A stretch of 64,000 nt of DNA from Candidatus Woesearchaeota archaeon (GTDB lineage Archaea; Nanobdellota; Nanobdellia; Woesearchaeales; GW2011-AR9). The stretch covers positions 10,323 to 74,322 of the forward strand of contig JACPCD010000005.1 of assembly GCA_016179955.1 (NCBI GenBank), given 5' to 3'. The notes beneath the pieces are model-generated. The model was not told where the DNA came from. It searched no databases and saw only the letters and a program-made list of their open reading frames with translations. Every line of letters starts with the position of its first letter. The stretch's first letter is position 1. The position numbers and the translations under genes are program-made. This document shows, piece by piece, positions 3,678 to 50,348 of this stretch.

Positions 3678-4573
3678 CCACGATCCAAGTCGATCTGGAC
3701 GGGTTATGGACCAATCTGCAGTATTATGGGCATGACGCGCCCGTAAGCCCCGATATCGTATTTACGTCGGGATTGCGCCGTTATCTGGATCTCTTTGAGG
3801 AATTAGGCATAAAAGCAACTTTTTTTGTGATCGGGAAAGATGTTGGCATTCCGGAAAAAAAAGTCTTGCTTCAGGAAGCTCATGAAAAAGGGCATGAATT
3901 GGCCAATCATACATTTACACACCCCTTTGGTTTCCGCAAATTATCAGCATCGCAACAACAGGCCGAGATTGAGCAAGGGGAAAGAGCTATAGGTTCCATT
4001 ACCGGCAAAAAGCCACGTGGATTCAAAGCGCCAGGGTATGATGTTGACACCAAAATATTATCCTTACTTGCAGAAAAAGGGTATCTTTATGATTCCTCTG
4101 TTATCCCCACCCCGGCATATCCTCTTTTAATGAAAATAAATAGTATTCTCACCCGCAGTGTCTCTCGAAACCATGGCCCGCGGTGGAGTTGGGGAATGGC
4201 TCCCAATGCACCCTATCATCCTTCGTCAAAAAAGGTCTGGAGGAAGGGAAATAATCCACTCTTGGAATTGCCGTGTACCACCTTTCCCGTACTACGAATC
4301 CCTATCCATGCCACCTTTGCCGTAAAATTAGGATACCCTTTTTTCCGAGGGGCATTAGAAGTCGTAAAGAAAAGGGCTATTCCTTTAAATTATGAATTTC
4401 ATGCTGCCGACCTGTCTGACACTATCATCGACTCACGTCTGGGGCACCTGCAAGGGATCCCAATAGAAAAAAGAATGGCTTTAGTACGAAAGATGTTAGC
4501 AGCTATCTCCACCAATTATGAGCTTCGGACTTCTATTGAGTTGGCTCAGGAGTTTATCACCCATGGCCATTGA
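3653..4573 (+). CDS. Polysaccharide deacetylase (CE4 / NodB-homology)
   Basis: KATFFVIGKDV and ELANHTFTHP motifs (NodB metal/catalytic motifs). Directly upstream of a FemAB-like gene, as in EPS loci. Confidence 0.85.
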   Translation: MAAKVSQLATIQVDLDGLWTNLQYYGHDAPVSPDIVFTSGLRRYLDLFEELGIKATFFVIGKDVGIPEKKVLLQEAHEKGHELANHTFTHPFGFRKLSASQQQAEIEQGERAIGSITGKKPRGFKAPGYDVDTKILSLLAEKGYLYDSSVIPTPAYPLLMKINSILTRSVSRNHGPRWSWGMAPNAPYHPSSKKVWRKGNNPLLELPCTTFPVLRIPIHATFAVKLGYPFFRGALEVVKKRAIPLNYEFHAADLSDTIIDSRLGHLQGIPIEKRMALVRKMLAAISTNYELRTSIELAQEFITHGH

Positions 4574-5615
4574 ACTATTAACTCCACACACTGAATCGGA
4601 ATATGCAAGGTACGTCGAGCATCATCCTCGTGGAACTATAGAATTTTTAGTAGGATGGCGAGACTTATTGCAAACAAATTTTAAGTTTAAACCAGTCTAC
4701 CTCATACGAAAAAATTCTAAAGAAGTTATTGATGGAGTTCTTCCTTTGTCTTTAGCAAAGAGTATTTTTGGTACGCGGCTTGTATCCCTGCCCTATGCAG
4801 TTTCAGCAGGTGTATTGGCTGATTCTGAAGAAGCACTCAAAGAATTAGTATCTTTTGCCGAAGAGTTGGCCCGAACTGAAAAAGTCGATTTTATAGAGAT
4901 TCGTGAATCTGAAAAAGCAACACTTTATCCGGCATCTTTTCGTTGCTCCCAAAGCGTCTTCTCTTTTTCTTTAGCCTTAAGTCCAGATGTTGATGCGGTC
5001 TGGAAAAAACTTCCTAAAGGGAGCGTCCGCTGGGGTATAAAGAAAGCGGAAAAAAGCGGATTAACCCAGAGGCATGGAAACTCCAAAGAATACCTCGATG
5101 ATTTTTATCAGCTCTTCCTGCAAACCAGGAAATATCGTGGCGTTCCAGCCTACCCCTATTCTTATTTAAAAGGGATCATGGACTTATTTAGTGATAAAGC
5201 CCGTATTTACATCGCTGATTATAACCAAAAACCGGTTGCCGGGATACTTTTATTATATTATAAACAGGAAGTGCGTTACGCTTTTGCTGGTGCGATACCC
5301 CATCCTAAAATATTGCAGTTGCAGCCGTACCATTTACTCTTATGGCCGGCAGTTAAAGATGCTTGTGAGCGCGGATATACTGTGTTTAATTTTGGGGGCG
5401 CAGCCCTTACCACCAATGACGGGGGATTATATGAATTTAAGAAGAAATGGGCTGATAAAATCACCCCTATAGAATCTTATGTTTATACTCCTAAAAAAAA
5501 ATACGTGCCCCCGTCAGAAAGCCCGTTATTTAAGATGGCTGGAAAGCTATGGCAACATCTTCCTATTCCCATAGTTAAAGCAGTTAGCCCTTATGTTATT
5601 CGTCAGTTCGTTTAA
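4563..5615 (+). CDS. FemAB-family (GNAT-fold) aminoacyl/peptidyl transferase-like protein, paralog 1
   Basis: FNFGGAALTTNDGGLYEFKKKWA and C-terminal ...SPYVIRQFV are shared with paralogs at 13753 and 59548. The track start at 4518 overlaps the deacetylase by 55 nt; ATG 4563 (MAIELL...) overlaps by only 11 nt. Confidence 0.75.
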   Translation: MAIELLTPHTESEYARYVEHHPRGTIEFLVGWRDLLQTNFKFKPVYLIRKNSKEVIDGVLPLSLAKSIFGTRLVSLPYAVSAGVLADSEEALKELVSFAEELARTEKVDFIEIRESEKATLYPASFRCSQSVFSFSLALSPDVDAVWKKLPKGSVRWGIKKAEKSGLTQRHGNSKEYLDDFYQLFLQTRKYRGVPAYPYSYLKGIMDLFSDKARIYIADYNQKPVAGILLLYYKQEVRYAFAGAIPHPKILQLQPYHLLLWPAVKDACERGYTVFNFGGAALTTNDGGLYEFKKKWADKITPIESYVYTPKKKYVPPSESPLFKMAGKLWQHLPIPIVKAVSPYVIRQFV

Positions 5616-5620
5616 ATAAA

Positions 5621-5704
5621 ATGGCAAACTACAAAATATCTTTCCTGCAAAAGGAAGAGTACCATCATTATGTTCATTTGCCAGAAGAAAACCGGTTGGA
5701 GTAA
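5621..5704 (+). pseudogene. 27-codon remnant of a FemAB-like gene 5' end (MANYKISFLQKEEYHHYVHLPEENRLE*)
   Basis: Hand alignment with the start of the 13753 gene (MENYKISFLQEQDYGKY...): 10/14 aa and 33/42 nt identical over the first 14 codons. Similarity then decays and a stop follows at 5702-5704. Confidence 0.55.
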
Positions 5705-5708
5705 TAGA

Positions 5709-6422
5709 ATGAATACTAAAATTACAGTCGATGAAAATGAATTGCGTACGAAATGCCGATGGCCGAGAAACCCAGGCATTCTAGGGGATAAAATGATGGA
5801 TGAACTAGGGGTATATCTAGCGAAGCTACTCTTACATACCGCTATTGCCCCTAACCACTTGACGATTATGGGCTTATTTTCGGGTCTTATTGGTGTGGGG
5901 TTGCTTACTTTTCCTAATTATCTAATCGTTGGAATAGGATACCTCTTGATATTCCTTTTCGGGGTTATAGATTACACTGACGGTGTCATCGCGAGATATA
6001 AAAATATAGCTTCTGAGAAAGGGAAGTATTATGATGATTTAGGGCACTTCATTCCTCCCCTCATTTTTCTGGCAGTTGGGATACACATTCTTAACACTAC
6101 CGGGAACGTAACTGCAGTTATTTTAGGCGGGCTCTCATCATTTATGTACGTGAGTATTGACTTCAATGCAAAATTAATGAATCTCATCACTGGTGAAAAA
6201 AAGCATCAGCTTTATTTAACAGGTGCATCTCCCATCAGGTCCGCGATATTAAAGATACAGAAAAACCTCACTTTTGGGGTCCATATAATCATACTCTTCG
6301 GTATAGCTACCCTTGCAGAATATTTTATTCCTGAGAGTAGTTTCTACATGTTGCTATTTTTTGCTCCGTTCCTTACTCTTACTTTTTTTGCTCAGACATT
6401 TTTCTATTCTAGAAAACTATAA
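5709..6422 (+). CDS. CDP-alcohol phosphatidyltransferase-family membrane transferase
   Basis: DYTDGVIARYKNIASEKGKYYDDLGH fits D-x2-DG-x2-AR-x8-G-x3-D, but the last Asp position is His. Multi-TM. The track start at 5670 overlaps the remnant; ATG 5709 sits just after the remnant stop. Confidence 0.75.
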   Translation: MNTKITVDENELRTKCRWPRNPGILGDKMMDELGVYLAKLLLHTAIAPNHLTIMGLFSGLIGVGLLTFPNYLIVGIGYLLIFLFGVIDYTDGVIARYKNIASEKGKYYDDLGHFIPPLIFLAVGIHILNTTGNVTAVILGGLSSFMYVSIDFNAKLMNLITGEKKHQLYLTGASPIRSAILKIQKNLTFGVHIIILFGIATLAEYFIPESSFYMLLFFAPFLTLTFFAQTFFYSRKL

Positions 6423-6469: not shown

Positions 6470-7627
6470 TTAACTAATGCGCCGCAGGATGGTGCGCAAA
6501 GATTTTTCTGTAAGCTCCCGTGGATTGTTCTTTACCCTTTCCTGATTAAATCCATTGGCAACAATAATGTCGTGATCTTCCGGGGTGGTTATGTTAAGCA
6601 TGGCCAGTTTTCTGGTAAGTTCGATCTGATCCATAAGCTGGTTTATCTTTTGTTGCATCTCCTCTGGTGTCTGGACCCGAAAGATCGAACACAAATCGTC
6701 CATAGTTTTTTTAACATAGGCCGGTCCTCTTGTATCCAGACAATCTTCAGCATTTATTCCTGTATTATAAAGAGAAATTTCTCCTAAAGTCAAGGCACAG
6801 GCATGACCATGAGCAATGCCAAAATAAGATGTTAGGGGATAAGAGATGGAGTGGCAGGCGGTAGTTTTGGAAACATTTATCGCCTTGCCCGCAAGATTAG
6901 CTGCTTTCATCATGGCCGCACGATGTTGCAGTGAAGGATTAGTGACTGCAGATTTTAAATTATCTAAAACAATAGTAATTGCCTGCCGAGCGTAATCTTT
7001 TGATTCTTCTGTTGACTGATTGGACCAGTAGGATTCGACCGCATGACACAAAGCATCTATCCCGGTAGAAGCAGTAATATTCTTAGGCAAATTTAAAGTA
7101 AGGGTTGGTTCCAGGAATACATATTCTGGCAGCATCCATTCCTGATGAGCCAGAGAATATTTTTTTTTATGGATATAAACCACCGCAAAATGGGTTGCTT
7201 CAGAACCAGTTCCAGCAGTGGTGGGGATAGCAATCAGTGGTTTTGGTTTTTGGCTTGGCTCAATCTCTTTTTTGATATACCTCTCTGGTTCTTCCGGTTC
7301 CGCCACCAGAAAATTAATTGATTTGGCCATGTCCATGACGCTTCCTCCACCAATTGCAATAGCCAGATCGCTTTCAGCCTGTCGGAATAAAGCTATTCCT
7401 TTCTTAATGTCTTCAAGTTGCGGGTTGAGTGAAAAATCAGAGAAAGTAGTTACTTTATAAGCAGAAAGAAGCGGCTCCATCATTTCTTGTGCCCTTGAAT
7501 GTTGGTAAGAAATTTTACCAGTTACTAGAAATATTGAGGAAGGTTTTTCCTGTTCTAATACTTTTTTGAGACCAGCCAGGCTTCCTGAACCAACATATTC
7601 TTGCTGCATTTTTTGCATTTCAAGCAT
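6470..7627 (-). CDS. Iron-containing (group III) alcohol dehydrogenase; by context, phosphonoacetaldehyde reductase (makes 2-hydroxyethylphosphonate)
   Basis: 385 aa Fe-ADH architecture (GGGSVMDMAK glycine motif, His-rich metal region HAVESY...HGHACA). Lies 4 nt downstream of ppd on the same strand. Confidence 0.7.
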   Translation of the reverse strand: MLEMQKMQQEYVGSGSLAGLKKVLEQEKPSSIFLVTGKISYQHSRAQEMMEPLLSAYKVTTFSDFSLNPQLEDIKKGIALFRQAESDLAIAIGGGSVMDMAKSINFLVAEPEEPERYIKKEIEPSQKPKPLIAIPTTAGTGSEATHFAVVYIHKKKYSLAHQEWMLPEYVFLEPTLTLNLPKNITASTGIDALCHAVESYWSNQSTEESKDYARQAITIVLDNLKSAVTNPSLQHRAAMMKAANLAGKAINVSKTTACHSISYPLTSYFGIAHGHACALTLGEISLYNTGINAEDCLDTRGPAYVKKTMDDLCSIFRVQTPEEMQQKINQLMDQIELTRKLAMLNITTPEDHDIIVANGFNQERVKNNPRELTEKSLRTILRRIS

Positions 7628-7631
7628 CTCT

Positions 7632-8765
7632 TCATCTTTGAATAAATTCCATGAATTTATTTTTATTTTCCATCGGAGATTGCGTGGGCCGTCCTAGATC
7701 CTTACGCGCGCCTTTATTGCAGCGTATCTCTAATAATGCCGGACCTTTCCCTTGCTTAATTGTTAGTAATTCCTCCCGTATCTCCGTCGCATTCTCAGCA
7801 CTACAAAATGTTTTATACCCATTAGCTTTCGCTATTCCGGGAATATCAATAGCATTAGCGGCGGTAGGCTGTCCGCCAACGGAGTCATGGGCAAAATTGT
7901 TGAAAATGATATGGTTAAAGTTTGCTGGTCGTAATTTTCCGATGGTTGAAAGAACTCCCATATGCATAATTAAAGCTCCGTCCCCATCAAAACAATATAC
8001 TCTTTGATTCGGCTTCTGGAGAGCGATGCCTAAAGCGATGGATGAAGAATGCCCCATCGATCCGACAGTTAAGAAATCTTGGTGGTGTCCATGTCCTGCT
8101 GCTTTCCGAAACTCAAATAATTCCCGTGAGGTTTTTCCCGTGGTAGAGACAATGATATCACCTTTATCAAGAAGCGAGGCTACCAATTTAATTGCTTCCT
8201 CCCGAATCAAGGGGAAATGAGTCTCCTGTTTCGTTTTCAATGAATAGGAATCAAATGTCCCCTCTCGAACTACGAAAGCATAAGGAGTTTTAGTATTGTC
8301 CAAATGTTCAGCCGCTTTTTGTACTTCTTTTTTCACTTCCTCTTCACTTTCAGGAAGGATAGCATACGGAATTTCTAACACCTCCAGCAACGGCAAAGTT
8401 ATTCTGCCCATCTTGCGATGCTGCGGCTCATCTTTTTTTCCTGCTTCGCCCCGCCATCCGATGAGCAGCAGCAGCGGTAAGGAATAAATTTCTTTATCGG
8501 TAAGCGAGGTTAGAGGATTAATACAATTGCCTAATCCCGAATTCTGTAAATAAACTACGCCCACTCTTCCTGTTGCTAAATGATAGCCTGCGGCTAAGGC
8601 AATGGCATTTCCTTCATTGGCAGCAATGATATTATTTTTTGAAGAAGTATTATCTGTAACGTACGCACAGAAATCTTTCAACAGGGAATCAGGGACGCCA
8701 GCGTAAAAAGAAAAGCCGTGTCCATGCAATAGATTAAAAAAGTATTGCGGTGAAATCATCTCCAT
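7632..8765 (-). CDS. ppd: Phosphonopyruvate decarboxylase (TPP-dependent)
   Basis: N-terminus ...FFNLLHGHGFSFYAGVPDSLLKDF and TPP motif GDGALIMHMG...x...NN. Sits in a locus with PEP mutase. TATA geometry favours Met3 (ATG 8759) as a leaderless start. Confidence 0.85.
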   Translation of the reverse strand: MEMISPQYFFNLLHGHGFSFYAGVPDSLLKDFCAYVTDNTSSKNNIIAANEGNAIALAAGYHLATGRVGVVYLQNSGLGNCINPLTSLTDKEIYSLPLLLLIGWRGEAGKKDEPQHRKMGRITLPLLEVLEIPYAILPESEEEVKKEVQKAAEHLDNTKTPYAFVVREGTFDSYSLKTKQETHFPLIREEAIKLVASLLDKGDIIVSTTGKTSRELFEFRKAAGHGHHQDFLTVGSMGHSSSIALGIALQKPNQRVYCFDGDGALIMHMGVLSTIGKLRPANFNHIIFNNFAHDSVGGQPTAANAIDIPGIAKANGYKTFCSAENATEIREELLTIKQGKGPALLEIRCNKGARKDLGRPTQSPMENKNKFMEFIQR

Positions 8766-8868: not shown

Positions 8869-8876
8869 TTTAAATA
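8869..8876 (+). promoter_or_regulatory. TATA-like box TTTAAATA for the radical SAM gene
   Basis: Centre is 27.5 nt upstream of ATG 8900. Confidence 0.55.
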
Positions 8877-8899: not shown

Positions 8900-10438
8900 A
8901 TGAGTAAAAGTTCGCTTCCGATAATTAATACTGGACCCGAAGAAGATTGTTTCAATTCGTCCCCACGACGACTCTCTAAAGTACCAATGACGCCTGCCCT
9001 AGAAACTTTGCTTAATCCCCATTTACATAACAAAGAAGCTATTTTTACAAGCCCCATAAGACCGCCCGCGGAGGGTGAGAAAATATACCATCTTTCAGAG
9101 GAACAGATTAAAGCACTAAGGGATTTGAGAGGAAACACTATTGATCTTCATCCCGGCATGGGCGGGATTGCCCCCCATAAACTTATTGACATGATTAAGC
9201 AAGGAAAACCGCTAACTTCTTTAGATTATATGATCACCAGAGGATGTAATTTTGAATGCACTTGGTGTTTCGCTGGGTCTGATCCTTATCAAAGAGATTA
9301 TCTTCCTTTTAACGTTCTTGAATCATTAACCACAGAAGCTGCGGATATAGGAGTAAGTTTATTTGTTCTCACTGGTGGGGAACCGTTGGTATATAAAGAC
9401 CCCGCTCTAGGAAAACAAAAGGAGCGAGGGGACCATTTTTTTAGAATTGTTCAAATGATCAGAGATACTTATAATAGAAAGGATAATCCGGCAAAGATCC
9501 TTACCTTTGATGATGTAGCCTTAATCACGCCGAAAATTGCCAAAAATTTCGCTGATTTTGAGGTTGGCTTATGTACAAAAGGCGATACTTTAAACCCGGA
9601 ATTGCAAGATTTTAAAGTCAATCAATCAGGAGCATTTAAAAAAATGCAACAGGGATACGAAAACCTGATGCATGTTGGATATGGTAAAAATCCAAAATTA
9701 CGCTTGGTTGTTAATTCAGTTCTGGACCACACCACTTTTGATGGAATAATCGATCTTCACCTGTGGGTCATGAAAAATGGATTTGATCACTCGATTGTTC
9801 CAGTACACTATTGCGGCAATGCTGAAAATGAGGATCAGGAGGCAGGAATACATTCTCCGCATGTAAAAGTCCTCTATGATTTAATCACCAGAATTGATGC
9901 TGCATATTTTGGTGTAAAATGGGAAGCTTGGTCTGCGTTTACGTACAATAAAACCTGTAACCGGAATAGATCGGGGTTGCACATCAGGGCCGATGGAGAC
10001 GTTACCGCGTGTTCAGAATCCCCAGGGAGATCTGAAACCAATAAATATACTTTTGGTAATGTTTTATCCGATAAAAATTTTTCACTTAGAACGCTAGCTA
10101 ATAGCCAACAATTAGCTGCTTACCGGGAAGAATTTGCTAAAGGACATGGCACCTATGTCTGCTCCCCAAAAGTATGTGATTTGTATGCTAATGATTTATG
10201 TCAGGGCGGTTGCGCAACTCGATCAGCGTATTCAAAAATTGATTATGAAACTGGTCTGATTGTAAAAAACGATAACCCCCATAGTTATAGTGAATTTAGG
10301 GAAGACCCTTTATGTCCTGCTTGGACCGTTCTTGCTGAACGCCAGGGCGTTCTTAAAAAAAGTTTACTGAGAGAAATTCATGATCGGCTACTTTCCAACA
10401 GTCAAAGTATAGAAGCGAGAGAATTCCCTTTTTCTTAA
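8900..10438 (+). CDS. Radical SAM enzyme with C-terminal Cys-rich SPASM/twitch-like domain; substrate unknown
   Basis: CNFECTWC (C116-x3-C120-x2-C123) plus the GGEPL glycine motif. C-terminal CSPKVCDLYANDLCQGGCATRS. About 100-aa N-terminal extension with no motif I recognise. Confidence 0.8.
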   Translation: MSKSSLPIINTGPEEDCFNSSPRRLSKVPMTPALETLLNPHLHNKEAIFTSPIRPPAEGEKIYHLSEEQIKALRDLRGNTIDLHPGMGGIAPHKLIDMIKQGKPLTSLDYMITRGCNFECTWCFAGSDPYQRDYLPFNVLESLTTEAADIGVSLFVLTGGEPLVYKDPALGKQKERGDHFFRIVQMIRDTYNRKDNPAKILTFDDVALITPKIAKNFADFEVGLCTKGDTLNPELQDFKVNQSGAFKKMQQGYENLMHVGYGKNPKLRLVVNSVLDHTTFDGIIDLHLWVMKNGFDHSIVPVHYCGNAENEDQEAGIHSPHVKVLYDLITRIDAAYFGVKWEAWSAFTYNKTCNRNRSGLHIRADGDVTACSESPGRSETNKYTFGNVLSDKNFSLRTLANSQQLAAYREEFAKGHGTYVCSPKVCDLYANDLCQGGCATRSAYSKIDYETGLIVKNDNPHSYSEFREDPLCPAWTVLAERQGVLKKSLLREIHDRLLSNSQSIEAREFPFS

Positions 10439-10515
10439 GGTTAGATCTCCATTTGTAATTCCATTGAAGCCGTAAAAATATTTTTGAAGATATATCTTTA
10501 TTAAGTTTATTATAC

Positions 10516-10555
10516 CAAAAGACATAATTATTTATACAATTTGTTATGTCTTTTG
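10516..10555. terminator. Hairpin 1 in a convergent intergenic region (12-bp perfect stem CAAAAGACATAA/TTATGTCTTTTG, 16-nt loop)
   Basis: Arms at 10516-10527 and 10544-10555, paired by hand. Confidence 0.35.
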
Positions 10556-10561
10556 TATATA

Positions 10562-10599
10562 CAAATGGCGTAAATTTGTATAACAATTTACGTCATTTG
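10562..10599. terminator. Hairpin 2 (15-bp stem with one G-U, 8-nt loop TGTATAAC)
   Basis: Arms at 10562-10576 (CAAATGGCGTAAATT) and 10585-10599 (AATTTACGTCATTTG). Confidence 0.35.
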
Positions 10600-10631
10600 G
10601 TATAGGTAGGGAATTACCACTTAGTAAAGGA

Positions 10632-11999
10632 CTAAACCTTATTTCTTCCTTCTTGGTTAAACCAGGGAATCATTTCACCAAAAGCACGGGCAGAATTCTG
10701 TTTCCCTATCAACGAAAGTTCTCGCTGAGGTTCACCCGCAACCCTTCCGCCAATTCTCAAAACTAATAATTTTCCATCCGGTCCGCGAAAATTATGTGGA
10801 ACAAACGGCTTTACATACATAGAGTCGTTTGGCATGATGGATTCGCAATACTCGTGGTCATCAGTGCGCCAGTTAATGTTCACTGGTGAATTTCCCACAT
10901 TATACACATATTGATGCAGGCCGACTTTAAGATCTAGGATGTCTCGGTTTTTATCGGACTGTTTAAGAACTTTCAACTCCAAGGCCCGGGAGTGGGATAG
11001 ATGACTTGTTCTTGCCAATTCCACCAATTTATACGCTGGATCAATACTGGGAAAATCCCATCTCCGGTTAGTTCTATAATAATTGACCAACACTTTCTTT
11101 TGTATATCGTCTGGAGGCAGTAATTCCCGCCGGTCAATATTTAATGCTTCTGCCAGCGCTTCGAGGTCATCAGGTTTTGGTAAAACCGTTCCCAATTCAT
11201 ATTTTTCTAAAAGAGATAAAGAAAGTCCAGTTCTCCGAGTTAATTCCGGATGATCAATACCGGCTGCTTCTCTATGAAACCGTAGCAGAGAAGCAGCTGC
11301 TTTTTCTCGAGTAGAAAAATCCAAGGCATAATCAGCGGCAAGTTCTGGACCTATTGCAGATAATTCTTGTTGTGTTTCTCCGGCAAGCTTATTTCCATAG
11401 GTTAAAGCAAGAATAAGTCCTTTCTCGCCAGCCCTATTCTTGCGGGTGGCAAATGTATGCGGAACAAACGGAGTAATATACATGGAGTCGCCGGTATTCA
11501 TGACCGCAACTTTTTTATCCCCCCTTTCTCCTTTGTAATAAAAATTAACCGGACCGATAAAGTATGTAAATTGATGCAGGAAGTGTCCATTGTTCCATTG
11601 CACTGCCTGATGGTTAGCACTATTGTTATCTACTATGCACAGTTCTTTGATCCATTCCGGCCGAAATTGGCCGACCGTGCTGGCAACTGTATCGCGATAT
11701 TCATAATACGGCTGGCCGGCACGTTTCATAACCCGGCTAGTTTTGGCGGATTCTTTCGCTCGCATGATTTTAACACCGATTGGACAATCATCGTTGACAC
11801 AATAGAAATCACGTTCGTTGACCGGCCATATCCCTGCTGCTCGCCTTATTAATTCCGCCGGAATCTCTTTCTCACCACTTAAATAATAATTAAGTTCGTC
11901 CACTGGGATCTTAAGGTCAGCTGCTGCATCTTCCGGTCGGCGTTTGAGATCATTCAGAATGCCTAAGAGATTCTGCGCGCTTCTTTTTTTATAGTTCAT
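10632..11999 (-). CDS. mpnS: HEPD/MPnS-family non-heme Fe(II) 2-hydroxyethylphosphonate-cleaving dioxygenase; residue pattern predicts methylphosphonate synthase
   Basis: 455 aa with two (HTH + cupin) repeats. The first cupin has H139, Q143, H181 with F153 and I175. All five sit at a constant -9 offset from the N. maritimus MPnS residues H148, Q152, H190, F162, I184 as I recall them. No Glu at the position of the HEPD Glu ligand (I175 instead). Codons verified on the DNA (CAC 11585-11583, CAA 11573-11571, TTT 11543-11541, ATT 11477-11475, CAT 11459-11457). Confidence 0.65.
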   Translation of the reverse strand: MNYKKRSAQNLLGILNDLKRRPEDAAADLKIPVDELNYYLSGEKEIPAELIRRAAGIWPVNERDFYCVNDDCPIGVKIMRAKESAKTSRVMKRAGQPYYEYRDTVASTVGQFRPEWIKELCIVDNNSANHQAVQWNNGHFLHQFTYFIGPVNFYYKGERGDKKVAVMNTGDSMYITPFVPHTFATRKNRAGEKGLILALTYGNKLAGETQQELSAIGPELAADYALDFSTREKAAASLLRFHREAAGIDHPELTRRTGLSLSLLEKYELGTVLPKPDDLEALAEALNIDRRELLPPDDIQKKVLVNYYRTNRRWDFPSIDPAYKLVELARTSHLSHSRALELKVLKQSDKNRDILDLKVGLHQYVYNVGNSPVNINWRTDDHEYCESIMPNDSMYVKPFVPHNFRGPDGKLLVLRIGGRVAGEPQRELSLIGKQNSARAFGEMIPWFNQEGRNKV

Positions 12000-12104: not shown

Positions 12105-13409
12105 TCATTCACCATTTGGTATTAGAGTAATAATTTCTTTAATGGACATGCATTGTTCATTACTTGCTTCATAACTTCGTTTATTCTTTAAAATAGATTC
12201 TGCTGTTTTTACCATAGCAGGATAAGCACTACGCAATAAATGATTAGCATATACAACCATATTAACTCCTGCCGTAATAAGTTCTTCTTCAGTGATTATA
12301 GAATAGGTGCTAGGGACCACGACTAAACTTACTTTAGTCTCAAATTTTTTGTATTCCTTGCAAAACTGTAAAATTTCTTCCGGGTTCTTTTCTTTACTAT
12401 GGATCATTATTCCATCAGCTCCAGCGGCAATGTATGCTTTTGCTCTTTCCAGGGCGTCAGCTAAACCTTTCTTTAGAATTAAACTTTCTATTCTCGCAAT
12501 AATCATAAAATCATCGGAAGCCTGAGACTTTTTCCCTTCTGAAATCTTGCGGCAAAAATTTTCTATTGTATCCTGATTTTGCTCTACTTCAGTTTCAAAA
12601 AGAGAATTTCTTTTCGAACCAATTTTATCTTCAATTACCACTGCTGAGACGCCCAATCTTTCCAAGGTTTTTACCGTAAAGCGGAAATGTTCAATTAATC
12701 CTCCGCTGTCAGCATCTACCAGCATTGGTTTAGTAGTTACCTCAAAAATTTCACTTACAGTGTTGCCTATAGAGGTAATATCCACATATTCAATATCTGG
12801 TTTACCTTTAGAAGTAGCATGGGTCAAACTGCTTAACCAAGTGGCATCAAATGTTTTGGGGACATTATCTTCATCTTTCACCATGGTTTTTTCAACAATA
12901 ATCCCGGTTAAACCATTATGGGCTTCTAAGATGCGTATCATGGATTTAGCGTCCAGCAAACGCCGCAGCATATTGCGGCGAATATCGGGGGTAATTCCTC
13001 TTTGTTTAACTTTAGTTATTAGCTGGGTTGAAGAAATCCCCTGAGTATAAAGCGGTTCAACAACTTGGCCGCCCCATTCTTTCATCACCTCTATTACCCT
13101 TTGGCGCTTTTTTGCCTGTATCCCTATTTTCCAGTCATCGCCATGAACAAAATAATCCGGCTTTAATTCTCGTATGGCGGGGATGTAATCGTCATCTTCC
13201 TGCGCATAGACCTTGCTTACCGTGCGTATATTTTCAATAACTTTTTTACGCTGCTCAAAAGTCAATATGGGGAGCCGCTTATAATTAGCAATGGCCCGAT
13301 CGGTCAGAAGCCCCACTGTCACTTCTCCAAGTTTGCTGGCTTCATTAAGAATATTCATATGGCCGTCGTGGAGTAAATCGGCAGCCATGGGAACATATAC
13401 TTTTTTCAT
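12105..13409 (-). CDS. pepM: Fusion of a cytidylyltransferase-like domain (HxGH) and phosphoenolpyruvate phosphomutase
   Basis: N-terminal MAADLLHDGHMNIL (HxGH nucleotidyltransferase motif, ~135 aa). The C-terminal ICL/PEPM fold carries the PepM-diagnostic EDKIGSKRNS (EDK-x5-NS). SD-like GTGAGGT lies 8 nt upstream of the ATG. Confidence 0.85.
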   Translation of the reverse strand: MKKVYVPMAADLLHDGHMNILNEASKLGEVTVGLLTDRAIANYKRLPILTFEQRKKVIENIRTVSKVYAQEDDDYIPAIRELKPDYFVHGDDWKIGIQAKKRQRVIEVMKEWGGQVVEPLYTQGISSTQLITKVKQRGITPDIRRNMLRRLLDAKSMIRILEAHNGLTGIIVEKTMVKDEDNVPKTFDATWLSSLTHATSKGKPDIEYVDITSIGNTVSEIFEVTTKPMLVDADSGGLIEHFRFTVKTLERLGVSAVVIEDKIGSKRNSLFETEVEQNQDTIENFCRKISEGKKSQASDDFMIIARIESLILKKGLADALERAKAYIAAGADGIMIHSKEKNPEEILQFCKEYKKFETKVSLVVVPSTYSIITEEELITAGVNMVVYANHLLRSAYPAMVKTAESILKNKRSYEASNEQCMSIKEIITLIPNGE

Positions 13410-13752: not shown

Positions 13753-14802
13753 ATGGAAAATTATAAAATCTCTTTTCTGCAAGAGCAAGATTATGGTAAA
13801 TATGCTTCTTTCCTCAAAGAATGTCCCGAAGCATTATACGAACACGACCTCGCAATTAAAGACTTAGTTGCTAAACACTTTAAATTTAAACCAAGCTATT
13901 TAATTGCGAAAGAAAACGAAAAGATAGCTGGGGTTCTGCCCATCTTTGAAGCTAAAAGTATCCTGGAAGGAACCCGGTTTGTTTCCATTCCTTTTTTCCC
14001 TTTCGGCGGGGTTATTGGCAAGGATATTGACTGCAAAAGGCAGTTGCTGGATAAAGCGAAAGAGCTGGCAGCCAATGCTAAATTCCTCCAGATACGGCAG
14101 CGTGAAGAGCTTCTCCCGGAGTTAGTTCAAGAGATGGTGGTGCAGAAGCCCATCACCAATTTTTTTATTGATCTTAAAAAAGGAGAACCAGAAATGTTTG
14201 CTTCCCTGGATAAAAGCATCCGCTATGACATACGAAAAGCCCAGAAACACCATCTTCCTGTCGTTATTGGCACTACCCCTTTACTTCTGAATGATTTTTA
14301 TACCGTATACTTAAATACGCGGAAGAAGCGGGGAGTTCCTGCCTGGCCGTACGGCTTATTTCAACAGGCCTTGCAGAACTGCAACACAAAAGTCGCAGTA
14401 ACCTATCATCAACAAAAACCAATTGCGGCCAGTTTCCTGTTTATGGATAAAGAAACTATCGAATACGCCTTTGCCGGGACCGATTATCGTTACTCCTGGA
14501 TGTGTCCCTACTATCTTTTAATCTGGGAAATCATTCGTTTTGGTATTCGCAACAATTACAAGACTTTAGAGCTTGGTGGTTCTACCAGAGAGATGAATGA
14601 TGGAAATATGTACCTGTTCAAAGACCAGTGGGCCACCCGAAAAGCGGAGATTCCGTATTACTTCTATGCTGCTGATCCTCAAAATATTCCTTCCCTGCAC
14701 CGTTCCTTTGCTCTCTACCGTTGGTATGGCCGTTTTTGGCGTTTGCTTCCCACGGCAGTGATTAAAAGAATAAGCCCATTCATTATACGCCAGTTTGTGT
14801 AA
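13753..14802 (+). CDS. FemAB-family transferase-like protein, paralog 2
   Basis: Same architecture and C-terminus (...SPFIIRQFV) as the 4563 gene. LELGGSTREMNDGNMYLFKDQWA core. Confidence 0.75.
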   Translation: MENYKISFLQEQDYGKYASFLKECPEALYEHDLAIKDLVAKHFKFKPSYLIAKENEKIAGVLPIFEAKSILEGTRFVSIPFFPFGGVIGKDIDCKRQLLDKAKELAANAKFLQIRQREELLPELVQEMVVQKPITNFFIDLKKGEPEMFASLDKSIRYDIRKAQKHHLPVVIGTTPLLLNDFYTVYLNTRKKRGVPAWPYGLFQQALQNCNTKVAVTYHQQKPIAASFLFMDKETIEYAFAGTDYRYSWMCPYYLLIWEIIRFGIRNNYKTLELGGSTREMNDGNMYLFKDQWATRKAEIPYYFYAADPQNIPSLHRSFALYRWYGRFWRLLPTAVIKRISPFIIRQFV

Positions 14803-50294: not shown

Positions 50295-50316
50295 TCCATA
50301 AATTTGGGTCATAATA

Positions 50317-50336
50317 TTTATAAATATTCTGGAACA
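50317..50336. promoter_or_regulatory. Palindromic TATA box TTTATAAA (within ATATTTATAAATAT) serving both directions, + 2 nt + decamer TTCTGGAACA
   Basis: TATA centre is 28.5 nt from ATG 50349 (+) and 26.5 nt from ATG 50294 (-). Confidence 0.55.
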
Positions 50337-50348
50337 TTTAACACTTAT

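What the first reader, a model, noticed from the sequence alone, without database searches (positions are those of the whole stretch)
8900..10438. Unassigned radical SAM/SPASM enzyme in the middle of the phosphonate cassette
A 512-aa radical SAM protein lies between ppd-adh and mpnS-pepM. It has the C116-x3-C-x2-C cluster motif, a Cys-rich C-terminal auxiliary-cluster region (CSPKVCDLYANDLCQGGC), and a ~100-aa N-terminal extension I cannot place.

It is transcribed divergently from ppd, from its own leaderless-type promoter. The known route to methylphosphonate needs no radical SAM step.

Inference: it could tailor the phosphonate, mature a glycan or peptide acceptor, or be unrelated. It is not the B12-dependent Fom3/PhpK type, because it has no B12-binding domain.
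Basis: inference. Interest (0 to 1): 0.65.

Follow-up and report, generated by a model that had tools for sequence, protein, structure and literature searches.

The report
Phosphonate-cluster radical SAM/SPASM enzyme family
This gene encodes a real iron-sulfur "radical SAM" enzyme from a small, uncharacterised family found almost only inside gene clusters that make carbon-phosphorus compounds (hydroxyethyl- and methylphosphonate) for cell surfaces, mostly in lineages typical of oxygen-poor habitats, so it probably carries out an undescribed oxygen-independent step in phosphonate biosynthesis.

Summary
ORF 8900-10438(+) encodes a 512-aa radical SAM/SPASM protein with C116x3Cx2C, a 7-Cys SPASM set, two further invariant Cys and a conserved N-terminal extension. 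It has no B12 domain. It lies between ppd/Fe-ADH and a bona fide mpnS plus a cytidylyltransferase-pepM fusion, in a Woesearchaeota glycan locus.

No curated family claims it. A search of 1.84 billion representatives shows a tight, isolated clade. Members are 43-83% identical across Archaea and Bacteria.

In 47 non-redundant loci of at least 8 kb, 37 carry phosphonate genes next to it: Fe-ADH 33, PepM 30, Ppd 23, a nucleotidyltransferase 36, MpnS-type 16. The gene is often inside the operon. The refutation condition (no conserved linkage) fails.

Peptide-maturase and sulfatase-maturase roles are disfavoured. There is no conserved precursor ORF, and sulfatase genes occur in only 4/47 loci without a target motif.

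Aerobic MpnS clusters (Nitrosopumilus) lack the enzyme, and about half of the complete clusters that carry it lack MpnS.

Best reading: a dedicated small-molecule phosphonate enzyme acting at the HEP or cytidylyl-HEP stage. The reaction itself is unknown. The most novel reading not excluded is an O2-independent counterpart of MpnS (about 0.2).

The parts
8900..10438 (+). Radical SAM/SPASM enzyme, 512 aa. It belongs to an isolated, uncharacterised family linked to phosphonate clusters.
   Evidence: ORF. Pfam Radical_SAM and SPASM. AF2 model pLDDT 85, pTM 0.87. Foldseek top hit anSMEcpe, E 9e-13, 17% identity. 170 homologs. Isolated clade.
8978..9214 (+). Family-specific N-terminal extension, residues ~27-105, with three helices packed on the core. 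It is absent from the nearest outgroup SPASM proteins and has no Pfam match.
   Evidence: Conserved in alignment A1. pLDDT 77-95 for residues 21-80. Outgroup matches start at profile positions ~60-95. No Pfam domain.
9245..9268 (+). C116-x3-C120-x2-C123, the radical SAM [4Fe-4S] cluster motif. The GGE-type SAM motif TGGEP (residues 158-162) lies downstream.
   Evidence: Invariant in 37 family members and in all outgroups.
9956..10315 (+). SPASM auxiliary-cluster region: C353-x12-G366-x4-C371, C421-x4-C426-x7-C434-x3-C438 and C472, seven invariant Cys in all. Two further invariant Cys lie upstream at C225 (strand beta4) and C305 (loop after beta6, family-specific).
   Evidence: Invariant columns in A1. 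Cys positions. Family specificity of C305, H287, H297, H361 and R363. Secondary structure.
8869..8876 (+). TATA-like box TTTAAATA starting 31 nt upstream of the ATG, a putative archaeal promoter giving a leaderless or very short-leader mRNA.
   Evidence: Sequence, and conservation at the same spacing in ortholog L001 while the flanks differ. The function is inferred, not tested.
7632..8765 (-). Phosphonopyruvate decarboxylase (Ppd), divergent from the radical SAM gene.
   Evidence: TIGR03297 500.8 bits, cutoff 312.5.
6470..7627 (-). Fe-dependent alcohol dehydrogenase, a phosphonoacetaldehyde-reductase-like enzyme that forms 2-HEP. It is the most frequent partner of the family (33/47 loci).
   Evidence: Pfam Fe-ADH. 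Best NCBIfam hit Phn_Fe-ADH, 194 bits, below cutoff. Co-occurrence.
10632..11999 (-). Methylphosphonate synthase (MpnS-type), convergent with the radical SAM gene.
   Evidence: 531 bits to 6B9S MpnS against 282 bits to HEPD 6B9R. H139/Q143/H181 plus F153/I175 match MpnS and differ from S. albus HEPD.
12105..13409 (-). Cytidylyltransferase-PEP mutase fusion, the same architecture as Fom1.
   Evidence: PF01467 and PF13714. TIGR02320 386 bits. EDKIGSKRNS motif.
5670..6422 (+). CDP-alcohol phosphotransferase-family membrane protein, the likely transferase for a CMP-linked phosphonate head group.
   Evidence: PF01066 33.8 bits. The family recurs in 11/47 loci. The role is inferred.
10511..10604 (.). 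AT-rich nested inverted repeats in the convergent spacer between the radical SAM gene and mpnS, a possible bidirectional terminator or regulatory site.
   Evidence: 32-nt arms at 81% complementarity, 15-nt arms at 93%, 12-nt arms at 100%. The function was not tested.

Best explanation
The gene encodes a three-cluster radical SAM/SPASM enzyme. It belongs to a small, sharply delimited, horizontally mobile family that is a dedicated component of the 2-hydroxyethylphosphonate (HEP) branch of phosphonate biosynthesis for cell-surface decoration.

Proposed working. PepM, Ppd and the Fe-ADH convert PEP to phosphonopyruvate, then phosphonoacetaldehyde, then HEP. A cytidylyltransferase can activate the phosphonate; here that is the Fom1-like domain fused to PepM, and elsewhere a LicC/GlmU-like NT, often with an APS-kinase-like partner. 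The radical SAM enzyme acts on this small phosphonate, either HEP or cytidylyl-HEP. This is the same pathway slot as MpnS, between the reductase and transfer to the acceptor.

Proposed mechanism. The enzyme reductively cleaves SAM. The 5'-deoxyadenosyl radical abstracts an H atom from the C2 unit, as Fom3 does on cytidylyl-HEP, but there is no cobalamin and so no methyl transfer. The two auxiliary [4Fe-4S] clusters accept or relay the electron, and C305 and/or C225 serve as cluster ligand or H-atom donor. The result is an O2-independent transformation of the head group.

What is shown: the domain architecture, the conserved Cys set, the isolation of the family, its gene-neighbourhood linkage, and the absence of peptide or sulfatase targets.

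What is inferred: the substrate (HEP or CMP-HEP), the site of H abstraction, the roles of the clusters and cysteines, and the product. The product is unknown. Candidates are O2-independent C1-C2 cleavage to methylphosphonate, or oxidation or rearrangement to a different head group.
For: Architecture: CX3CX2C, TGGEP, a 7-Cys SPASM set, and invariant C225 and C305. The AF2 model is confident (pLDDT 85) and most resembles anSMEcpe, SuiB and CteB.

The family is isolated. There are only about three full-length 50%-identity clusters, and then scores drop from over 390 to about 140 bits. No NCBIfam equivalog comes near its cutoff.

Linkage in 47 non-redundant loci of at least 8 kb: Fe-ADH 33, PepM 30, Ppd 23, NT or CT 36, MpnS-type 16, any phosphonate gene 37. 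The chance expectation for PepM within 10 kb is of order 1e-4; this is my estimate, using the pepM frequency of ~4% of genomes in PMC8942020.

The gene is embedded within operons, for example ctPEPM>RSAM>PPD>ADH, MPNS>RSAM>PPD>ADH and PEPM>PPD>ADH>RSAM>NT>APSK. Linkage persists in the most divergent subgroup (43-48% identity, L082-L097) and in a distant homolog that lacks the N-terminal region (P0127).

All ADH subgroups hit the phosphonate Fe-ADH model best.

Identity is 43-83% between Archaea and many bacterial phyla over the full length, with many invariant Arg, Lys and His residues. That fits one small anionic substrate better than variable peptides or glycans.

ADH occurs without MpnS in 20 loci, and MpnS without ADH in only 3. 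So the substrate is more likely the ADH product than MPn.
Against: There is no biochemical evidence of any kind.

Ten of the 47 loci have no phosphonate gene within 10 kb, for example the Rhodospirillaceae locus L019 in a housekeeping context. In those genomes pepM may be elsewhere, or the enzyme may have another role.

The known HEP and MPn routes are chemically complete without it, and aerobic MpnS clusters lack it. So its step is not obligatory.

In clusters that also carry MpnS it would compete for HEP, unless it is isofunctional with MpnS or acts on the cytidylylated form.

The distant homolog's cluster lacks the ADH.

The closest structural relatives are mostly peptide- or protein-modifying enzymes.

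A plausible radical route from HEP to a useful product is not obvious: C2-H abstraction followed by oxidation would simply reverse the ADH.
Confidence: 0.55

Rival explanations
1. The enzyme acts on a part common to all these pathways that is not the phosphonate carbon skeleton. This could be the cytidine nucleotide handle of the activated donor (a viperin-like or MoaA-like nucleotide chemistry, possibly connected with the APS-kinase-like 3'-kinase), or the glycan or lipid acceptor.
For: A nucleotidyltransferase is present in 36/47 loci and an APS-kinase-like domain in 14/47, including the compact APSK-NT>ADH>RSAM triad. This reading fits clusters with and without MpnS equally well. Viperin, MoaA and DesII appear among the structural and sequence matches. 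The clusters sit in glycan loci with NeuB, DegT and glycosyltransferases.
Against: The viperin and MoaA matches cover only the generic SAM-binding half. The window itself has no NT or APS kinase, only the CT fused to PepM. Acceptor and glycan genes differ widely between loci while the enzyme stays 43-83% identical. The Fe-ADH, which has no role in nucleotide or acceptor chemistry, is the most frequent partner.
Confidence: 0.17
2. The enzyme acts upstream of HEP, on phosphonopyruvate or phosphonoacetaldehyde. For example it could be a radical decarboxylase or decarbonylase that replaces or bypasses Ppd, or it could modify C1 before reduction by the ADH.
For: Four well-covered loci have PepM, ADH and the enzyme but no detectable Ppd (L015/L106, L057, L061, L093). 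The distant homolog P0127 sits with PepM-NT and Ppd but no ADH. Aldehydic or alpha-phosphonyl C-H bonds are easy targets for a 5'-dA radical (my inference).
Against: Twenty-three loci carry both Ppd and the enzyme, so it is not a general Ppd substitute. If PnAA were the substrate, the strongly conserved ADH would be superfluous in MpnS-less clusters. A modified C2 unit would not suit MpnS in the 16 loci that carry it. Ppd may simply lie elsewhere in those four genomes.
Confidence: 0.1
3. The enzyme is a peptide or protein maturase. It would be either a RiPP-type SPASM enzyme acting on a small precursor, or an anSME-like enzyme that matures a sulfatase/alkaline-phosphatase-family phosphonate transferase or another enzyme of the cluster.
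For: The best structural matches are anSMEcpe, SuiB, TigE, CteB, SkfB and ChlB. The best weak NCBIfam hits include sactipeptide and other peptide maturases. Sulfatase-family genes do flank MpnS in Nitrosopumilus.
Against: No small ORF is conserved next to the gene across the family. There is no RRE or PqqD-like domain, and the N-terminal extension is helical with no Pfam match. The anSME model scores 20 bits against a cutoff of 349. Sulfatase-family genes occur in only 4/47 loci, none has a Cys/Ser-x-Pro-x-Arg motif, and the window has none. The Nitrosopumilus cluster that has sulfatases lacks this enzyme. Cross-domain sequence conservation is very high.
Confidence: 0.05
4. The enzyme is an unrelated passenger gene whose proximity to phosphonate genes is coincidental, or reflects only shared residence in variable glycan islands.
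For: Ten of 47 loci lack phosphonate genes nearby. The clusters lie in mobile, variable cell-surface loci.
Against: PepM lies within 10 kb in 30/47 independent loci across two domains and many phyla. The gene is frequently inside the pepM-ppd-adh operon on the same strand. Linkage is retained at 43-48% identity and in a distant homolog. Generic glycan genes (NeuB, DegT, GTs) co-occur far less consistently than the phosphonate genes.
Confidence: 0.03

Closest known systems
anSMEcpe, the anaerobic sulfatase-maturating enzyme of Clostridium perfringens (PDB 4K36-4K39)
   Same: It is the best structural match (Foldseek E 9e-13, TM 0.69 on the target). Both have a partial TIM-barrel radical SAM core plus a C-terminal SPASM domain with seven Cys for two auxiliary [4Fe-4S] clusters, and both suggest O2-independent oxidative chemistry.
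   Different: Identity is only 16-17%. TIGR03942 scores 20 bits against a cutoff of 349. This protein has an extra ~100-residue N-terminal extension, altered Cys spacing (CX4CX7CX3C rather than CX2CX5CX3C), and no Cys equivalent to the upstream AuxI ligand just before the motif. No sulfatase target co-occurs.
Fom3, the cobalamin-dependent radical SAM C-methyltransferase of fosfomycin biosynthesis
   Same: The pathway context is the same: a CT-PepM fusion (Fom1-like), Ppd (Fom2), an Fe-ADH (FomC), a radical SAM enzyme, and a cupin enzyme of the HppE/HEPD/MpnS superfamily. Fom3 abstracts H from C2 of cytidylyl-HEP (PMC8158854, and my own knowledge of the fosfomycin pathway).
   Different: This protein has no B12-binding domain and belongs to the SPASM branch, so methyl transfer via methylcobalamin is excluded. 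The cupin partner here is MpnS-type, not the epoxidase HppE.
MpnS, methylphosphonate synthase (non-heme Fe, O2-dependent; PDB 6B9S)
   Same: It occupies the same pathway slot in gene-content terms: PepM-Ppd-ADH-[MpnS]-NT in aerobes against PepM-Ppd-ADH-[this enzyme]-NT in about half of the complete clusters here. Where both occur they are usually adjacent. 16 of 18 MpnS-like partners carry the MpnS signature, not the HEPD signature.
   Different: The fold and cofactors are unrelated (a cupin using O2 against a radical SAM enzyme with three Fe-S clusters). Equivalence of function is only a hypothesis.
AhbD / NirJ / AhbC, SPASM/twitch radical SAM enzymes that trim tetrapyrrole side chains
   Same: These are the named families closest to the nearest outgroups (about 150 bits) and they appear among the weak hits of the protein itself. 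They are small-molecule SPASM enzymes that carry out O2-independent oxidative decarboxylation or C-C cleavage.
   Different: Scores are far below the cutoffs of 500-650. There is no tetrapyrrole context. The N-terminal extension and the C305/H287/H297/H361/R363 signature are absent from them.
BtrN, a twitch-domain radical SAM dehydrogenase acting on a small-molecule alcohol
   Same: It is the conceptual model for a SPASM/twitch enzyme that oxidises a carbinol C-H of a small molecule and passes the electron to an auxiliary cluster (from my own knowledge).
   Different: It did not appear among the top matches. It has one auxiliary cluster, not two. Simple dehydrogenation of HEP would merely reverse the neighbouring ADH.
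Cj1416/Cj1415 of Campylobacter jejuni (a nucleotidyltransferase plus an APS-kinase-like 3'-kinase that build the PAPS-like phosphoramidate donor)
   Same: It parallels the NT and APS-kinase-like partners, separate or fused, that accompany the enzyme in many loci. PMC8942020 notes Campylobacter ppm-ppd clusters flanked by 'radical SAM and adenylsulfate kinase' genes.
   Different: This concerns the partner genes, not the enzyme itself. The window lacks them. Whether the Campylobacter radical SAM protein belongs to this family was not tested. The Cj1415/Cj1416 functions are recalled from memory.

Membership tests
Radical SAM superfamily | CX3CX2C motif ligating the SAM-binding [4Fe-4S] cluster | tested here: met
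   C116/C120/C123 are invariant in 37 family members and in all outgroups.
Radical SAM superfamily | Profile match above the curated threshold, and the partial (beta/alpha)6 barrel fold with the GGE SAM motif | tested here: met
   PF04055 39.8 bits against 29.5. TGGEP 158-162 is invariant. The AF2 model shows alternating beta/alpha elements and matches radical SAM structures at probability 1.0.
SPASM-domain subfamily | C-terminal seven-Cys motif, CX9-15GX4C ... CX2CX5CX3C ... C, for two auxiliary [4Fe-4S] clusters | tested here: met
   All seven Cys are invariant: C353-x12-G366-x4-C371, C421-x4-C426-x7-C434-x3-C438, and C472. The spacing of the central block is non-canonical. PF13186 scores 25.3 against 21.5, but TIGR04085 scores 22.8, below its cutoff of 27. 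Cluster content itself is not testable here.
Anaerobic sulfatase-maturating enzymes (anSME, TIGR03942) | Equivalog-level sequence match | tested here: not met
   20.4 bits against a cutoff of 349.45. Identity to 4K37 is 17%.
Anaerobic sulfatase-maturating enzymes (anSME, TIGR03942) | A co-occurring sulfatase substrate with the Cys/Ser-x-Pro-x-Arg motif | tested here: not met
   Sulfatase-family genes occur in 4/47 loci, none carries the motif, and the window has none.
Class B (cobalamin-dependent) radical SAM methyltransferases (Fom3, PhpK) | N-terminal B12-binding (Rossmann-like) domain | tested here: not met
   There is no PF02310 hit. The N-terminal ~100 residues are mostly helical with no beta-alpha-beta repeat. 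A genuine B12 radical SAM elsewhere in the window, at 50304-51902, is readily detected.
RiPP-maturing SPASM enzymes (AlbA, SkfB, CteB, SuiB, PqqE, MftC) | An adjacent precursor peptide gene and/or an RRE (PqqD-like) recognition domain, with an equivalog-level match | tested here: not met
   No small ORF is conserved across the family. There is no RRE or PqqD Pfam hit. The best peptide-maturase models score 26-39 bits against cutoffs of 265-650.
AhbD / NirJ / AhbC tetrapyrrole-modifying radical SAM enzymes | Equivalog-level match and a heme or heme d1 biosynthetic context | tested here: not met
   Scores of 22-33 bits against cutoffs of 500-650. No tetrapyrrole genes appear in any locus.
PhnJ (the C-P lyase radical SAM component) | PhnJ family sequence and phnGHIJKLM context | tested here: not met
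   PhnJ does not appear among the 25 best of 34 NCBIfam hits or among the Pfam hits at E<=0.01. No phnGHIKLM-like genes were seen in the loci whose genes carried Pfam or NCBIfam annotation. Some loci contain PhnCDE-type transporter genes only.
MpnS (for the neighbouring gene 10632-11999) | A 2-His-1-Gln Fe site plus the Phe and Ile that fix the Gln (N. maritimus F162 and I184, replaced by Tyr and Gly in S. albus HEPD) | tested here: met
   H139/Q143/H181 and F153/I175 are present. The alignments show Phe/Ile shared with 6B9S and Tyr/Gly in 6B9R. The assignment of these residues as diagnostic is from my recollection of Born et al. 2017; the paper could not be retrieved.
PEP mutase (for the neighbouring gene 12105-13409) | TIGR02320 above cutoff and the EDK(X)5NS active-site motif | tested here: met
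   386 bits against 319.55. EDKIGSKRNS at residue 260. The motif criterion is from bioRxiv 10.1101/2020.11.04.368217.

The most novel reading that the evidence does not exclude
The enzyme is the oxygen-independent functional counterpart of methylphosphonate synthase. It would be a radical SAM/SPASM enzyme that converts 2-HEP, or cytidylyl-HEP, to the C1 phosphonate (methylphosphonate) by radical C1-C2 cleavage, allowing MPn-decorated cell surfaces to be made in anoxic water, sediment and groundwater. In this reading clusters with both genes carry an aerobic/anaerobic pair, like HemF/HemN, AcsF/BchE or FGE/anSME. The thiol-type HxlR regulator often found between or beside them might switch between the two.

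Support:
- The apparent slot replacement: PepM-Ppd-ADH-[MpnS]-NT in aerobes against PepM-Ppd-ADH-[rSAM]-NT in about 10 complete clusters here.
- Partnership only with MpnS-signature enzymes, never HEPD-signature ones.
- Frequent direct adjacency to MpnS.
- A distribution centred on lineages I know as mostly anaerobic or microoxic.
- Weak intermixing of the downstream NTs.

Against: no precedent exists, and there is no easy radical route, since C-C scission needs an O-centred radical on HEP. HEP itself could also be the final head group in the MpnS-less clusters.
Probability: 0.2. Interest if true: 0.9.

Novelty: new variant of a known kind. Interest (0 to 1): 0.68.

Why it matters
Phosphonates make up a large share of marine dissolved organic phosphorus. 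Methylphosphonate is the accepted precursor of aerobic marine methane (the 'methane paradox'), and MpnS, the only known route to it, needs O2.

This work defines an uncharacterised radical SAM/SPASM family that is built into HEP and MPn clusters of DPANN archaea, CPR bacteria, Omnitrophica, anammox bacteria and other lineages typical of low-oxygen habitats. That points to an undescribed, O2-independent step in phosphonate head-group biosynthesis.

Whatever the reaction is, it would be the first SPASM radical SAM enzyme in phosphonate biosynthesis. The radical SAM enzymes I know of in phosphonate metabolism are the B12-dependent Fom3 and PhpK, and PhnJ.

If it proves to be an anaerobic MpnS analogue, the predicted sites and producers of methylphosphonate would change. 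If it makes a different head group, it predicts a new natural phosphonate on the surfaces of ultra-small symbionts.

The family is compact, well conserved and modelled with confidence, so it is a tractable target for anaerobic enzymology.

Tried and rejected
- Curated family assignment. Pfam and NCBIfam gave only superfamily-level hits. PDB searches with the sequence and with the profile matched only the SAM-binding segment of MoaA, SkfB and viperin.
- Literature. Eight full-text searches and several papers yielded no description of this family. The only lead is a remark on Campylobacter ppm-ppd clusters flanked by 'radical SAM and adenylsulfate kinase' genes (PMC8942020), which I did not follow to sequence level.
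- Born et al. 2017 could not be retrieved, so the MpnS residue numbering rests on memory plus the alignments.
- RiPP hypothesis. A search for conserved small ORFs found only shadow frames within closely related subsets.
- anSME-like hypothesis. A sulfatase survey was negative.
- Viral and plasmid carriage. There are no family members in IMG/VR, only generic radical SAM hits of 27-36% identity over short stretches, and none in PLSDB.
- First clustering pass. Single linkage merged the radical SAM and PepM clusters. No protein hits both, so this was a chaining artefact and not a fusion. Stricter coverage fixed it.
- The 'ADH' partner of the APSK-NT>ADH>RSAM triads looked like a different enzyme (<40% identity), but it still hits the phosphonate Fe-ADH model best.
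- NT tree as a proxy for head-group identity. The branches are too long and unsupported to be decisive.


Full report
OBSERVATION.

The ORF at 8900-10438 (+) is present exactly as described: ATG start, 512 aa. Its cysteines lie at 17, 116, 120, 123, 225, 305, 353, 371, 421, 426, 434, 438 and 472. Pfam gives Radical_SAM (39.8 bits, gathering 29.5) over residues 111-189 and SPASM (25.3 bits, gathering 21.5) over residues 353-413, with no B12-binding domain.

The identical protein is on record as 'radical SAM protein [Candidatus Woesearchaeota archaeon]', so the window comes from a DPANN archaeon.

- Ppd at 7632-8765(-), TIGR03297 500 bits.
- An Fe-ADH at 6470-7627(-) whose best model is the phosphonate-cluster Fe-ADH.
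- A CTP_transf_like+PEP_mutase fusion at 12105-13409(-), TIGR02320 386 bits, with the EDKIGSKRNS active-site motif.
- A 455-aa HTH/cupin protein at 10632-11999(-).

The last of these is MpnS rather than HEPD. It scores 531 bits against N. maritimus MpnS (6B9S) and 282 bits against S. albus HEPD (6B9R). It also shares with MpnS the Fe ligands His/Gln/His and the Phe and Ile that are Tyr and Gly in that HEPD.

The gene is divergent from ppd across a 134-bp AT-rich spacer. A TTTAAATA box starts 31 nt upstream of the ATG and recurs at the same spacing in the 83%-identical ortholog L001 while the flanking sequence differs. The 'own, leaderless-type promoter' is therefore plausible, though untested.

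The wider window is a cell-surface glycan locus: PMT_2 and GT2 glycosyltransferases, Alg14/Glyco_tran_28_C, a flippase, NeuB, UDP-GlcNAc 2-epimerase, DegT aminotransferases, a polysaccharide deacetylase and a CDP-alcohol phosphotransferase.

THE PROTEIN.

An alignment of 37 family members (A1) shows the following invariant features:
- The CX3CX2C motif and a TGGEP SAM motif.
- A complete seven-Cys SPASM set: C353-x12-G366-x4-C371, C421-x4-C426-x7-C434-x3-C438, and C472. The spacing of the central block is non-canonical.
- Two more cysteines, C225 in strand beta4 and C305 in the loop after beta6.
- Many basic residues: K227, K351, R355, R363, R409, R441, R467, H287, H297, H303, H321 and H361.

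The N-terminal extension is conserved from about residue 27, and only the first ~26 residues vary.

AlphaFold2 with this alignment gives a confident model (pLDDT 85, pTM 0.87). Its best PDB match is the anaerobic sulfatase-maturating enzyme anSMEcpe (E 9e-13, TM 0.69 on the target, 16-17% identity). SuiB, TigE, CteB, SkfB, ChlB, DesII, EpeE, viperin and MoaA follow.

The architecture is thus that of a three-cluster SPASM enzyme, but no close relative has been characterised:
- The best NCBIfam scores are about 39 bits against cutoffs of 131-725 (27 for the SPASM domain model).
- PDB sequence and profile searches match only the SAM-binding segment.

An exhaustive HMM search of 1.84 billion representatives shows how isolated the family is. 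About three full-length 50%-identity clusters score above 390 bits. Scores then fall to about 140 bits for generic ~360-aa SPASM proteins that lack the N-terminal extension. The best named relatives of those outgroups, far below threshold, are AhbD and NirJ.

Mapping the outgroups onto the family profile shows which residues are family-specific: C305, H287, H297, H361 and R363.

GENOMIC CONTEXT.

Homologs are 43-83% identical over the full length. The source names are Woesearchaeota, Nanoarchaeota, Ryanbacteria and other Patescibacteria, Omnitrophica, Ca. Scalindua, Phycisphaerae, Deltaproteobacteria, Acidobacteria, Rhodospirillaceae and Gammaproteobacteria. That spread indicates horizontal mobility and strong constraint.

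I collected 18 loci from reference genomes and 79 from metagenomes, plus annotated contigs. I called ORFs, clustered them by all-against-all BLASTP, and reduced the set to 75 non-redundant loci, of which 47 are at least 8 kb.

| Feature within about 10 kb of the enzyme | Loci (of 47) |
|---|---|
| Fe-ADH | 33 |
| PepM | 30 |
| Ppd | 23 |
| LicC/GlmU-like nucleotidyltransferase | 26 |
| Cytidylyltransferase (free or fused to PepM) | 17 |
| Either kind of nucleotidyltransferase | 36 |
| MpnS-like protein | 16 |
| APS-kinase-like domain (often fused to the NT; passes the apsK cutoff) | 14 |
| B12-type radical SAM | 12 |
| CDP-alcohol phosphotransferase | 11 |
| Any of PepM, Ppd, ADH or MpnS | 37 |

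PepM occurs in only a few percent of genomes (PMC8942020), so chance proximity is of order 1e-4 per locus by my estimate.

The gene is commonly inside the operon. Examples are ctPEPM>RSAM>PPD>ADH, MPNS>RSAM>PPD>ADH, RSAM>ctPEPM>PPD>ADH and PEPM>PPD>ADH>RSAM>NT>APSK. A recurrent compact triad, APSK-NT>ADH>RSAM, is also seen. The triad's ADH is a separate subgroup, but it still hits the phosphonate Fe-ADH model best.

The linkage runs deep:
- It survives in the most divergent subgroup, at 43-48% identity (L082-L097).
- It survives in a distant homolog that lacks the N-terminal extension, P0127, which sits with a PepM-NT fusion, a split Ppd, a CDP-alcohol transferase and an NT.
- The next outgroup, P0136, lies about 7 kb from an AEP-type phosphonate set.

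Accessory genes point to CMP-linked donor chemistry: cytidylate kinase, HIT proteins, TagF-like and CDP-alcohol transferases.

Ten loci show no phosphonate gene nearby. Several of these still carry an NT, an APS kinase and glycan genes. A few are true orphans, such as the Rhodospirillaceae locus next to ilvD and valS.

RELATION TO MpnS.

Of 18 scorable MpnS-like partners, 16 carry the MpnS signature H-Q-F-I-H. These include forms only 30-35% identical and two half-length forms. None carries the HEPD signature, and two have a third pattern.

MpnS is directly adjacent to the enzyme in 8 of 16 loci, and separated only by an HxlR-type regulator in 2 more.

MpnS is nonetheless dispensable. ADH occurs without MpnS in 20 loci, while MpnS occurs without ADH in only 3. 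Among clusters with PepM, Ppd and ADH all present, about 10 lack MpnS and about 12 have it.

Conversely, the MpnS family is roughly ten times larger: 1,765 hits at E<=1e-20 against 170 at E<=1e-5. The MpnS clusters of Nitrosopumilus zosterae and a marine Dehalococcoidia have PepM, Ppd, ADH, MpnS and NT but not this enzyme.

Three inferences follow:
- The enzyme is not part of the canonical aerobic MPn route.
- Its substrate is unlikely to be MPn itself.
- In gene-content terms it occupies the same slot as MpnS, between the reductase and nucleotidyl activation.

A crude NJ tree of the NTs puts those from MpnS-less loci together with those from MpnS-containing loci, next to the aerobic MPn-cluster NTs. 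I give this little weight.

RIVALS TESTED.

Peptide maturase. No small ORF is conserved beside the gene across the family. The recurrent ones are shadow frames within close relatives. There is also no RRE-like domain.

anSME-like maturase. Sulfatase-family genes occur in 4/47 loci. None has a Cys/Ser-x-Pro-x-Arg motif, and one has Thr at that position. The window has none.

B12 methyltransferase. Excluded by architecture.

Passenger gene. Excluded by the statistics above.

A role on the nucleotide handle or on the acceptor remains possible. It is less likely because the acceptor and glycan genes vary, the window has no NT or APS kinase, and the ADH is the most constant partner.

A role upstream of HEP is suggested by four loci with PepM, ADH and the enzyme but no Ppd. 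The 23 loci that have both Ppd and the enzyme argue against this.

MECHANISM.

What is shown: a three-cluster radical SAM/SPASM architecture, and dedicated, ancient, cross-domain linkage to the HEP branch of phosphonate biosynthesis.

What is inferred: the enzyme binds HEP or cytidylyl-HEP. The CT-PepM fusion has the architecture of Fom1, whose CT domain makes cytidylyl-HEP for the radical SAM enzyme Fom3 (PMC8158854 and my own knowledge). The enzyme cleaves SAM, abstracts an H atom from the C2 unit, and uses the auxiliary clusters and C305 and/or C225 to complete an O2-independent transformation of the head group.

The product is unknown. Simple dehydrogenation would only reverse the ADH. Methylation is excluded by the lack of cobalamin.

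The most interesting candidate is C1-C2 cleavage to methylphosphonate, which would make this the anaerobic counterpart of MpnS. I put this at about 0.2. The comparative genomics fit it well, but the chemistry has no precedent, because scission needs an O-centred radical.

I put the umbrella explanation, a small-molecule phosphonate enzyme acting at the HEP stage, at about 0.55.

NOVELTY.

No paper in the searchable library describes this family. The superfamily and the SPASM architecture are known. A SPASM radical SAM enzyme built into phosphonate biosynthesis is not. I therefore rate it a new variant of a known kind, with moderately high interest: a specialist would want to know the reaction, and the enzyme is tractable.

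Noticed in passing
L048, L055, L052, L053, L012, L058, L065, L061 (APSK-NT>ADH>RSAM); L069/L070 and L023 (separate NT and APSK): An APS-kinase domain (passes the TIGR00455 cutoff) is fused to, or sits next to, a LicC/GlmU-like nucleotidyltransferase beside the ADH-rSAM pair. By analogy with Campylobacter Cj1416/Cj1415 (from memory), this suggests a PAPS-like 3'-phospho-NMP-phosphonate donor. A Sulfotransfer_1 protein occurs in L086/L087/L092. PMC8942020 mentions Campylobacter ppm-ppd clusters with 'radical SAM and adenylsulfate kinase' genes.
   Followed up: partly
L003, L005, L008, L009, L015/L106, L037, L068 (immediately upstream of the rSAM gene, divergent): A ~120-140-aa HxlR-family regulator with an N-terminal Cys (the position of the sensing Cys in YodB/HxlR-type thiol sensors, from memory) is divergently transcribed from the radical SAM gene. 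In L009 and L015 it sits between mpnS and the radical SAM gene. It may couple expression to redox or electrophile state.
   Followed up: no
L015/L106, L057, L061, L093: These loci have PepM, Fe-ADH and the radical SAM enzyme (L015 also has MpnS) but no detectable Ppd within 10 kb, although PepM needs a coupled downstream step. Either Ppd is elsewhere or another enzyme drives the pathway.
   Followed up: partly
L106 11651-14239; also L031, L018, L011: PhnCDE-type phosphonate ABC importer genes (Phosphonate-bd, ABC_tran, BPD_transp_1) lie inside otherwise biosynthetic phosphonate clusters of DPANN-type archaea. This hints at scavenging of external phosphonate for surface decoration.
   Followed up: no
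L028 2571-3299, L029 7128-7856; L009 8333-9553, L010 6585-7823: Half-length (242 aa) MpnS-like proteins retain the MpnS H-Q-F-I-H signature. Two ~410-aa homologs have Val/His or Ala/His at the Phe/Ile positions, which is neither the MpnS nor the HEPD pattern.
   Followed up: no
window 50304-51902 (+); 12/47 related loci; L116 16195-17844 (Nitrosopumilus zosterae): A B12-binding radical SAM protein (weakly HpnJ/BchE/PhpK-like) recurs in phosphonate and glycan clusters both with and without the SPASM enzyme, including the aerobic Nitrosopumilus MpnS cluster. The window copy is 40 kb away and only 26% identical to the recurrent type.
   Followed up: partly
window 10511-10604: Dense nested AT-rich inverted repeats (32-nt arms at 81%, 15-nt at 93%, 12-nt at 100%) lie in the convergent spacer between the radical SAM gene and mpnS. 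They may be a bidirectional terminator or a regulatory element.
   Followed up: no
window 4518-5615 (+) and 13753-14802 (+): Two FemAB/Acetyltransf_6-type (aminoacyl-tRNA-dependent peptidyltransferase-like) genes flank the phosphonate cassette in an archaeon. They cluster together with each other but recur in no other locus.
   Followed up: no
L014 ~10001-11450 (OZ251221.1, 4.05-Mb bacterial chromosome): The radical SAM homolog is split into two ORFs and has no phosphonate neighbours. It may be a frameshifted pseudogene or a long-read assembly error.
   Followed up: no
L019-L022 (Rhodospirillaceae, TARA): This is an orphan context: the enzyme sits between ilvD and two conserved unannotated ORFs (64 and 222 aa), among housekeeping genes and with no phosphonate or glycan genes within 10 kb.
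   Followed up: partly
L001 (CAYIZT010000043.1) and other 'uncultured Methanosarcinales archaeon' records (L008, L009, L011, L015): The taxonomic labels look inconsistent. The syntenic 8.8-kb contig, 83% identical to the window, is titled Methanosarcinales in one source, while its MpnS protein is named Nanoarchaeota in NCBI (P0279). The gene content is DPANN-like.
   Followed up: no
L001 999-1730, L106 916-1635, L009: A cytidylate kinase gene lies next to the CDP-alcohol phosphotransferase in several clusters. This is consistent with recycling of CMP released from a CMP-phosphonate donor.
   Followed up: no
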